64,000 nt of DNA from Eledone cirrhosa (taxonomy: Eukaryota). A program made the translations under genes and the position numbers. How positions within the stretch are numbered: position 1 is the first letter of the stretch; each line of letters begins with the position of its first letter. Shown in pieces: positions 54,129 through 55,679 of this stretch. The stretch is from positions 39,804,001 to 39,868,000 of the forward strand of contig OZ024743.1 in the NCBI GenBank assembly GCA_964016885.1. Direction: 5' to 3'. The notes beneath the pieces were generated by a model. That model did not search any database. It was not told the DNA's origin and saw nothing but the letters and a program-made list of their open reading frames with translations.

Positions 54129-54382
54129 ATGGATATATATATATATATATATATGTATGTATACGTACATACATATATGTATACAGACGTACAGTAGTAT
54201 GTATATATATAAACATACATGCACACTCACACATATATATATATATATATATATATATATATACATATGGGTTTATCGAACATTGATTATAATGCTCGGT
54301 TTGTTTGTAAACAAAAAACACGAATTAAGCCGTACAGTGTTTAGCAACCATCGCTGCCCTTTTGTTCAACACTGACAAAGGA

Positions 54383-54425
54383 ACGATGTACTAGTTTCAA
54401 GCTTATTAGCTATCGTCAGCATCGT
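54383..54425 (-). ncRNA. Minimal hammerhead, family I (intact)
   Basis: Reverse complement of 55094-55136; the middle copy 54810-54852 carries core mutations. Confidence 0.85.
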
Positions 54426-55093
54426 ATACCTTCCTGCCAGATGATTGAACGTCTGAAAGTATATACTTTCCTTATGCATATTAACGGCTGAGAAGCCTAA
54501 TTTGCATATCGAGTGTGTTAGTCGGCTAAGCTCACCGAGAACGATAAATGGAAAAAATGAAACGAAATATTATACCTCACTCTTAGTACGGCCGTTACTT
54601 AAATATAAGTATGTATACGTACATACATATATGTATACAGACGTACAATAGTATGTATATATATAAATACATGCGCACATATATATATGTACGTATGGGT
54701 TTACCGAACTTTTATTATAATGCTCGGTTTGTTTTTAAACAAAAAGCCCGAATTAAGCCGTACAGTGTTTAGCAACCATCGTTGCCTTTTGTTCAAAACT
54801 GACAAAGGAACGATGTATTAGTATCAAGCTTATTAGCTATTGTCAGCATCGTATACCTTCCTGCCAGATGATTGAACGTCTGAAAGTATATACTTTCCTT
54901 ATGCATATTAACGGCTGAGCAGCCTAATATGCATATCGAGTGAGTAAGTCGGCCGAGCGCACCGAAACAATAATTGAAAAAAATGAAACGAAATTTCATT
55001 TCTCCCTCGATATGCGAATTAGGCTGCTCAGCCGTTAATATGCACAAGGAAAGTATATACTTTCAGACGTTCAATCATCTGGCAGGAAGGTAT

Positions 55094-55136
55094 ACGATGC
55101 TGACGATAGCTAATAAGCTTGAAACTAGTACATCGT
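55094..55136 (+). ncRNA. Minimal hammerhead, family I (intact)
   Basis: acgatg-CTGACGA-t agct aata agct t-GAAA-ctag-TA-catcgt. Confidence 0.85.
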
Positions 55137-55679
55137 TCCTTTGTCAGTGCTGAACAAAAGGGTAACGATGGTTGTTAAACACTCTACGGCTTAATTCGGG
55201 CTGTTTGTTTGATATATATATATGTATATATATATATATATATATATATATATATATATATATATACATATATATATATATATATATATATATATATATA
55301 TATATATATATATATATATATATATATATATATATATATATAGATAGATAGATAGATAGATAGATAGATAGATAGATAGATAGAGAGGGAGGGAGAGAGA
55401 GAGAGAGAGATATATAAAGAGAGAGAGAGAGAGAGAGAGAGAGAGAGAGAGAGAGAGAGAGAGAGAGAGAGAGAGAGAAAGAACACTTTTAATAGTTCCG
55501 CAAATATACTTTGTTACATGTTCTGTGAAATCCTCAATATTATTTGGTCAGCAACAAAGTTTCATCTCATTTTTGGTCTTAATCCGTTTCCTCCAATAAG
55601 GAATCCTATTGAGGAGGTCACAGAATTAATAATAAAGCTACAGTGAATGTCTTAGGACAGTATAGCATATCTACGAAAA

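What the first reader, a model, noticed from the sequence alone, without database searches (positions are those of the whole stretch)
54155..55212. Family I: retrozyme-like tandem units with a textbook minimal HHR on both strands
Seen: three HHR copies, two in tandem 427 nt apart (minus) and one inverted (plus). The intact copies have a 6-bp stem I (extendable via agga/tcct across a bulge), AGCU/AGCU stem II, palindromic CUAG and a GUA site. Inference: an unmutated tandem would release a ~427 nt monomer able to circularise, as retrozymes do. Here the middle copy is mutated.
Basis: partly seen in the sequence, partly recalled or inferred. Interest (0 to 1): 0.75.

Follow-up and report, generated by a model that had tools for sequence, protein, structure and literature searches.

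The report
Penelope-inserted hammerhead retrozyme, decayed copy
This is an ageing copy of a very abundant non-coding repeat in an animal genome that carries a hammerhead (self-cutting RNA) motif and bears the insertion marks of Penelope-type jumping genes, which likely copied it from a small RNA, probably a circle; the kind of element is already known, and this copy is predicted to be unable to release the circle.

Summary
Observation confirmed: three type I hammerhead copies, two 427 nt apart on the minus strand (the upstream one broken at G8, A14 and G16.2) and one on the plus strand. The motif is not textbook or minimal: stem II closes with U·U, and the layout is the canonical type I with a palindromic helix III. 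'Both strands' is one head-to-head insertion of a single-polarity unit, not a two-polarity replicon. The intact core occurs 24,749 times in the genome. Copies sit in (TA)n, are 5'-truncated at scattered points, run through the cleavage site, and end at two fixed sites about 60 nt apart. In 30 of 30 readable head-to-head insertions one arm uses each site; a young autonomous Penelope-like element here does the same (10 of 10). Stem I and long-range helices show compensatory changes. None of 80 loci is the end of a coding element. Verdict: a non-LTR retrozyme likely mobilised by Penelope-like enzymes; cleavage and circular RNA are untested (no RNA run listed). The scan noted what is probably this family before (e1-8665316).

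The parts
54133..54154 (.). (TA)n tract, target site at the outer end of the long arm
54152..55008 (-). Long arm, two units in length, 5'-truncated at the junction and ending at the family's fixed 3' site A
54383..54425 (-). Intact type I hammerhead; C3 at 54419, predicted cut after A17 at 54389; U·U at base of stem II
54389..54815 (-). One full 427-nt unit, cut site to cut site; non-coding; circular fold -116.4 kcal/mol, z -5.5
54500..54507 (-). ATGCAAAT octamer-like motif, present in 21 of 24 aligned units; promoter role untested
54544..54605 (-). 'Tail' between fixed end sites A (about 54606) and B (about 54544), read through in this unit
54810..54852 (-). Broken hammerhead: G8A (54841), A14U (54823), G16.2A (54818)
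55002..55008 (.). Head-to-head junction: 7 nt (CTCCCTC) that belong to both arms; the two family segments are partners in a conserved long-range helix
55002..55211 (+). Short inverted arm; stops about 81 nt after the cut site, short of sites A and B, so probably deleted after insertion
55094..55136 (+). Intact type I hammerhead; C3 at 55100, predicted cut after 55130
55212..55382 (.). (AT)n tract at the outer end of the short arm

Best explanation
The stretch is one old head-to-head insertion of an abundant non-coding hammerhead repeat (a non-LTR retrozyme) that a Penelope-like reverse transcriptase-endonuclease likely copied from a roughly 425-nt RNA, probably circular. Shown in sequence: copy number, (TA)n targets, two fixed 3' ends, scattered 5' ends, arms that run through the cut site, one arm per end site, compensatory base changes. 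Inferred steps: (1) a tandem source locus is transcribed; (2) two intact hammerheads release a monomer, slowly or with protein help; (3) the monomer is ligated; (4) a Penelope-like enzyme in trans cuts both strands of a (TA)n tract and primes cDNA from each DNA end, one at site A and one at site B; (5) each cDNA runs round the template and stops at random; (6) the two cDNA ends are joined, here through 7 nt of complementarity. This copy has since decayed and is predicted not to release a monomer. My odds: non-autonomous Penelope-type insertion about 0.9; functional ribozyme in source elements about 0.85; circular template about 0.65.
For: Abundance: 24,749 exact core matches; 16,749 for a flank pattern. 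Ends: arms stop about 212 (A) or 272 (B) nt after the cut site, against (TA)n. Of 43 head-to-head junctions a script called 20 fully, all A+B, none A+A or B+B; 10 more read by eye are A+B; 13, the window among them, have a truncated or unclear arm. This is the Penelope signature of partial tandems, an inverted 5'-truncated copy and a tail on one end (PMC8557442) and of two internal start sites with both strands cut and extended (PMC11167929). A young autonomous family in this genome (104 copies scored, 98-100% identical, most with a 775-aa open frame) targets (TA)n, has two ends 50-65 nt apart used A+B in 10 of 10 inverted loci, and carries a hammerhead with the same U·U and a 4-nt palindrome. 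Selection on RNA: one stem I pair occurs as G·U 33, U·G 26, A-U 13, C-G 1, unpaired 7 in 80 loci; U1.7 and the last loop-2 A are invariant in 80 of 80; 8 of 107 consensus pairs change on both sides, 5 of them in six or more of 24 units. One template: opposite arms share a rare variant in 6 of 22 opposite-strand pairs; arms of L028 differ by 0-0.5% against 2.0% to the nearest other locus. Read-through: 3 of 100 arm 5' ends lie in the first 8 nt after the cut site, no pile-up; arrays reach 7 copies per arm.
Against: No cleavage or RNA data. No autonomous element shares sequence with the unit: 8 families among 40 GIY-YIG loci gave no significant match other than two separate insertions of this family, nor did the young family (best E 0.018, wrong strand). 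ViennaRNA puts the dimeric active register at probability 0.0 in 4 of 4 natural dimers and pairs the core with helix III. In the 2026 preprint 1 of 9 Xenopus dimers cleaved in vitro, and in vitro the Anolis element used uncut RNA and did not need its hammerhead. No A-to-G strand bias: 52 against 43, p 0.47. At least one array grew by DNA duplication (L127). Covarying pairs reflect only about three related subfamilies; pairs with a two-sided change were matched by 40 of 500 shuffles. 55 of the 80 loci were picked by the intact core, so core conservation and the lack of ends at the cut site are partly built in. Gene conversion could also make arms alike.
Confidence: 0.65

Rival explanations
1. 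Same Penelope-driven insertion, but the template is an uncut linear multimer; the hammerhead only trims ends or acts late with protein help, and long arrays grow by template jumps or DNA duplication.
For: The Anolis element used unprocessed RNA in vitro and no RNA-seq reads ended at its cut site. The active fold is not favoured. L127 shows a local 842-bp duplication and L131 a threefold one. Read-through of the cut site fits this as well as a circle.
Against: Truncation alone can only shorten arrays, yet young insertions hold up to 7 near-identical copies in one arm and 2 in the other with proper A and B ends (L101). Circles are shown for coral, mussel and axolotl retrozymes, one with the same U·U stem II (PMC7229834).
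Confidence: 0.25
2. The copies are 5'-truncated terminal repeats (pLTRs) of a long coding Penelope-like element, with no separate small RNA.
For: End structure and target match autonomous elements in the same genome; Xenopus retrozymes match pLTRs in 24 of 57 families. Only 80 loci of many thousands were inspected.
Against: The unit is head-to-tail with itself at 420-540 nt; 0 of 80 loci run from the unit into a coding frame; Penelope frames nearby are separate insertions; no sampled autonomous family shares the sequence.
Confidence: 0.07
3. A viroid-like replicon with ribozymes in both polarities, integrated in the genome.
For: Hammerheads lie on both strands in the window; the monomer folds stably as a circle (z -5.5 to -9.7).
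Against: Both strands carry the same sense motif in mirror-image arms; the scan of the window found no hammerhead in the antisense of the unit; the ends are Penelope-type.
Confidence: 0.02

Closest known systems
Metazoan non-LTR retrozymes (Cervera and de la Pena 2020, PMC7229834, parts 2-4 of 6 read; Li, Clavereau and Pollet 2026, 10.64898/2026.07.22.740005, parts 1-3 of 5 read)
   Same: Non-coding tandem unit of a few hundred nt, one type I hammerhead per unit, low GC, no LTR, thousands of dispersed copies, stable self-paired circle predicted, Penelope-like elements in the same genome.
   Different: Expression and circles not shown here; unit 420-540 nt with an internal (TA)n hairpin; the parts read do not describe two fixed ends or the A+B rule for retrozymes; no pLTR homologue found, unlike 24 of 57 Xenopus families.
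Axolotl HHR_Amex2 and newt satellite 2 hammerheads (PMC7229834)
   Same: Type I, short palindromic helix III, U·U at the base of helix II (Amex2: 22% cleavage in 1 h as a monomer, better as a dimer).
   Different: Helix III here is one C-G pair with a 2-nt loop (6-nt palindrome ACUAGU); no sequence comparison was made.
Endonuclease-bearing Penelope-like elements, Neptune/Nematis type and Anolis Poseidon (PMC8557442 passages; PMC11167929 parts 1-2 of 4; PMC4209133 parts 1-2 of 4)
   Same: Partial tandems, inverted 5'-truncated arm, tail on one end, microsatellite or AT-rich target, hammerhead upstream of the start sites.
   Different: No RT or GIY-YIG frame; tail about 60 nt rather than 30-40; the in vitro study saw no strand difference in start site, whereas here the two arms always use different sites.

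Membership tests
Type I hammerhead ribozyme | Core CUGANGA, GAAA, UH with open stem I | tested here: met
   broken in the middle copy
Type I hammerhead ribozyme | Helix I 6 bp, helix II 4 bp, short palindromic helix III | tested here: met
   stem I covariation
Type I hammerhead ribozyme | G10.1-C11.1 pair | tested here: not met
   U·U; precedent in an active axolotl motif
Type I hammerhead ribozyme | Loop 1-loop 2 contact nucleotides (unpaired U1.7, last A of loop 2) | tested here: met
   both invariant in 80 of 80 loci (the loop A is fixed by the search pattern in 55 of them); contact described in PMC11875169 passages
Type I hammerhead ribozyme | Match to an Rfam hammerhead model | tested here: not met
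Type I hammerhead ribozyme | Self-cleavage | not testable with these tools
   folding does not favour the active or dimeric register
Minimal hammerhead of PLEs (Cervera and de la Pena 2014) | No or vestigial helix III, long helix II (6-8 bp), short helix I, extra base after A9, G10.1-C11.1 | tested here: not met
Non-LTR retrozyme | Tandem non-coding units, each with a type I hammerhead | tested here: met
   family; at this locus only one of the two tandem motifs is intact, so it fails the preprint's 'active' criterion
Non-LTR retrozyme | Dispersed high copy number, no coding frame, no LTR | tested here: met
Non-LTR retrozyme | Stable self-paired circular monomer fold | tested here: met
   z -5.5 to -9.7 in 4 of 4 natural units, 30 shuffles each; the internal TA hairpin contributes
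Non-LTR retrozyme | Expressed as linear and circular monomer RNA | not testable with these tools
   no RNA holder listed
Non-LTR retrozyme | Target-site duplication | tested here: inconclusive
   ends lie in (TA)n, where a duplication cannot be read
Autonomous Penelope-like element | RT plus GIY-YIG frame between pLTRs | tested here: not met
   0 of 80 loci
Penelope-type insertion | Partial tandem, inverted truncated arm, tail on one end, microsatellite target | tested here: met
   the window's own plus arm has lost its end
Non-autonomous derivative of a PLE pLTR | Sequence shared with the pLTR of an autonomous family | tested here: inconclusive
   none in 8 families from 40 of 150 scored GIY-YIG loci (10,595 candidates) or the young family
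Viroid-like replicon | Ribozymes in both polarities of one unit | tested here: not met

The most novel reading that the evidence does not exclude
A Penelope-like enzyme dimer grips one small circular RNA that shares no sequence with its own element, starts two reverse transcriptions at two different sites 60 nt apart, one from each end of a double-strand cut in (TA)n, and rolls round the circle in both arms; the retrozyme is then a structural mimic of the Penelope RNA rather than a deletion derivative, and the young autonomous family found here is its driver.
Probability: 0.3. Interest if true: 0.72.

Novelty: new member of a known kind. Interest (0 to 1): 0.4.

Why it matters
Retrozyme mobilisation by Penelope-like elements and the circular intermediate are proposed in the papers read but not shown there. 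This family pairs a young, intact ribozyme repeat with a young, intact autonomous element that obeys the same two-end rule in one genome, which gives a defined RNA, enzyme and target for an in vitro test. It is also about 25,000 hammerheads that Rfam does not detect. The locus itself is a decayed copy, and the scan has noted such families in this genome before.

Tried and rejected
Rfam: no hammerhead hit. Expression: no RNA holder listed; four runs of unknown kind, contigs only, show the sequence in three coded organisms and nothing on RNA ends. Autonomous partner by sequence: 40 GIY-YIG loci in 8 families, none similar; the hammerheads next to the coding frames in L061 and L062 are separate insertions; coding Penelope fragments near 12 sampled loci are not joined to the unit. 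A profile search of the genome with an RT alignment was not available, so only one RT protein was searched. A pattern allowing other stem II sequences gave 183 matches; the 100 listed are point mutants of this family. A-to-I editing scars, suggested by note e1-8803865 for another family: not seen. A dimer-circle reading of the alternating array L127 was rejected: unit 3 equals unit 5 but not unit 1 at its start, as a local duplication predicts, and the one outside match lacks the other variants. Dimeric hammerhead register: not favoured by folding. Octamer counts by script failed on a faulty pattern; the 21 of 24 count is by eye. L102 was left out of the end count because another element separates its arms. 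Paper searches found no description of an octopus retrozyme or of the strict two-end rule; the supplement of PMC7229834 could not be read and preprint supplements are closed, and either may list cephalopod families; Repbase was not searchable.

Full report
Observation. A scan of both strands found CUGACGA-UAGCUAAUAAGCUU-GAAA-CUAG-UA with a 6-bp stem I at 55100 (+) and 54419 (-). The third copy lies 427 nt upstream on the minus strand with G8A, A14U and G16.2A. The three copies differ at 9 of 204, 11 of 205 and 12 of 204 positions, so the insertion is old relative to the youngest copies, which are identical between loci. Stem II closes with U·U. Rfam reports no hammerhead. By Cervera and de la Pena 2014 (PMC4209133, parts 1-2 of 4 read) a 6-bp helix I, 4-bp helix II and short palindromic helix III define the canonical animal type I motif, not the minimal one; a U·U base of helix II occurs in the weakly active axolotl motif Amex2 (PMC7229834).

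Family. The genome is 3.0 Gb; I take it for an octopod cephalopod from recalled repeats, which I did not test. The core with stems II and III matches exactly 24,749 times, control 0; a flank pattern matches 16,749 times, and 25 of its first 30 matches have an intact core, seven of them from one array. I studied 80 loci: 25 distinct ones from the similarity search and 55 taken in order along one chromosome from the pattern list. Units are 420-540 nt, length varying mostly in an internal (TA)n hairpin, in about three subfamilies.

Insertion anatomy. Counting from the cut site, arms end at about 212 (site A) or 272 (site B), directly against (TA)n, and begin at scattered points. Of 100 arm starts in the 55 loci, 3 fall in the first 8 nt after the cut (arms were mostly found through their hammerhead, which biases against such starts). 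Many loci have two arms head to head. Among 43 junctions a script called both ends in 20, all A+B; I read 10 more by eye as A+B; 13 have a truncated or unclear arm; none is A+A or B+B. The window is such a locus: the long arm ends at A at about 54152, the short arm has lost its end, and the junction 55002-55008 is a 7-nt overlap of two segments that pair in the consensus fold. Craig et al. (PMC8557442, passages) describe partial tandems, an inverted truncated copy, a tail on one end and (TA)n preference for Penelope-like elements; Frangieh et al. (PMC11167929, parts 1-2 of 4) show that the tail lies between two internal start sites and that both strands are cut and extended.

Partner. No locus runs from the unit into a coding frame (0 of 80). 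A GIY-YIG search gave 10,595 candidates, 150 scored; the 40 I fetched fall into 8 families with RT and GIY-YIG domains, none similar to the unit. One family is very young: 104 scored copies at 98-100% identity, most with a 775-aa frame, a 4.2-kb unit and a Cx4CxxC motif before the nuclease, as in Neptune and Nematis. It targets (TA)n, has a hammerhead with U·U and palindromic GUAC, and uses A+B in 10 of 10 inverted loci among the 12 stretches I chose plus L065. It shares no sequence with the unit, so it is a candidate driver only.

Selection on the RNA. One stem I pair is G·U in 33, U·G in 26, A-U in 13, C-G in 1 and unpaired in 7 of 80 loci; U1.7 and the last loop-2 A, which form the tertiary contact in the Schistosoma structure (PMC11875169, passages), are invariant. 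In 24 full units 97.9% of cells pair and 8 of 107 pairs change on both sides, including two in a helix whose strands lie about 170 nt apart; slid controls pair 23-45%; the count of such pairs is matched by 40 of 500 shuffles, and the sequences are related, so this is a handful of events. Natural monomers fold as circles with z -5.5 to -9.7. Against easy cleavage: the predicted ground state pairs the core with helix III and the dimeric register has probability 0.0 in 4 of 4 dimers; 1 of 9 Xenopus dimers cleaved in the 2026 preprint.

Template. Opposite arms share a rare variant in 6 of 22 opposite-strand pairs, the window's two tandem units share one, and L101 holds 9 copies within 1% across both arms. 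This fits two cDNAs from one small template that is read more than once. It does not prove a circle: uncut multimers, template jumps, gene conversion and local duplication (shown for L127) can give parts of the pattern. No A-to-G bias was found and no RNA run was listed.

This locus. Releasing a monomer needs two working hammerheads; the upstream one has lost two invariant core bases. A read-through transcript would also pair the short arm with the adjacent part of the long arm in a hairpin of about 200 bp. The copy is therefore predicted inert as a source.

Comparison and verdict. It works like, and meets the sequence criteria of, a metazoan non-LTR retrozyme (PMC7229834, parts 2-4 of 6; preprint parts 1-3 of 5); the expression criterion is untested. 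Four searches found no paper on an octopus family or on the strict A+B rule; the giant squid paper reports 235 Rfam hammerhead hits without analysis (PMC6962438, passage). An internal promoter is possible: an octamer-like motif is kept in 21 of 24 units and newt satellite 2 has an snRNA-type promoter (cited in PMC2220036, passage). The scan's own notes already describe a 422-nt two-armed family with ends 59 nt apart in this genome, probably this one (e1-8665316; seen after my own result), and similar 310-, 467- and 520-600-nt families; look-ups by sequence and nearby returned nothing. New member of a known kind; interest 0.4.

Noticed in passing
window 76-124 (+) and 6705-6657 (-): Two copies of another hammerhead-like motif with a long stem II region and 8-bp stem I.
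   Followed up: no
window 41405-41434 (-) and 41562-41591 (+): Head-to-head pair of a third hammerhead family, also U·U at the base of stem II, with palindromic CAAUUG in helix III.
   Followed up: no
window 44510-44546: 37 nt, 97% identical to end site A of the autonomous L051 Penelope family, at the end of a unit with no other match to it: a possible non-autonomous client of that family.
   Followed up: partly
L208:1294-6220: A young autonomous Penelope-like element has inserted into the internal (TA)n tract of a young unit of this retrozyme family.
   Followed up: partly
L051, L052, L060, L062, L063, L069: Autonomous families carry the U3-A8 core variant (UUGAAAA) and two (TA)n-abutting ends, about 62-72 nt apart in the L051 family and about 35 nt in the L069 family.
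   Followed up: partly
L056, L060, L069: A further short hammerhead family (U·U stem II, long helix III) inserted in (TA)n at the ends of coding elements.
   Followed up: no
window 46500-50100: Four tandem units of about 1,005 nt, no hammerhead in my scan.
   Followed up: no
window 53720-54130, 31163-31329, 45919-46017, 51910-52025: Palindromic elements; several look like two short arms of other families around a (TA)n or short centre.
   Followed up: no
L127, L131: Arrays enlarged after insertion by local DNA duplication (842 bp; about 2.6 kb three times).
   Followed up: yes
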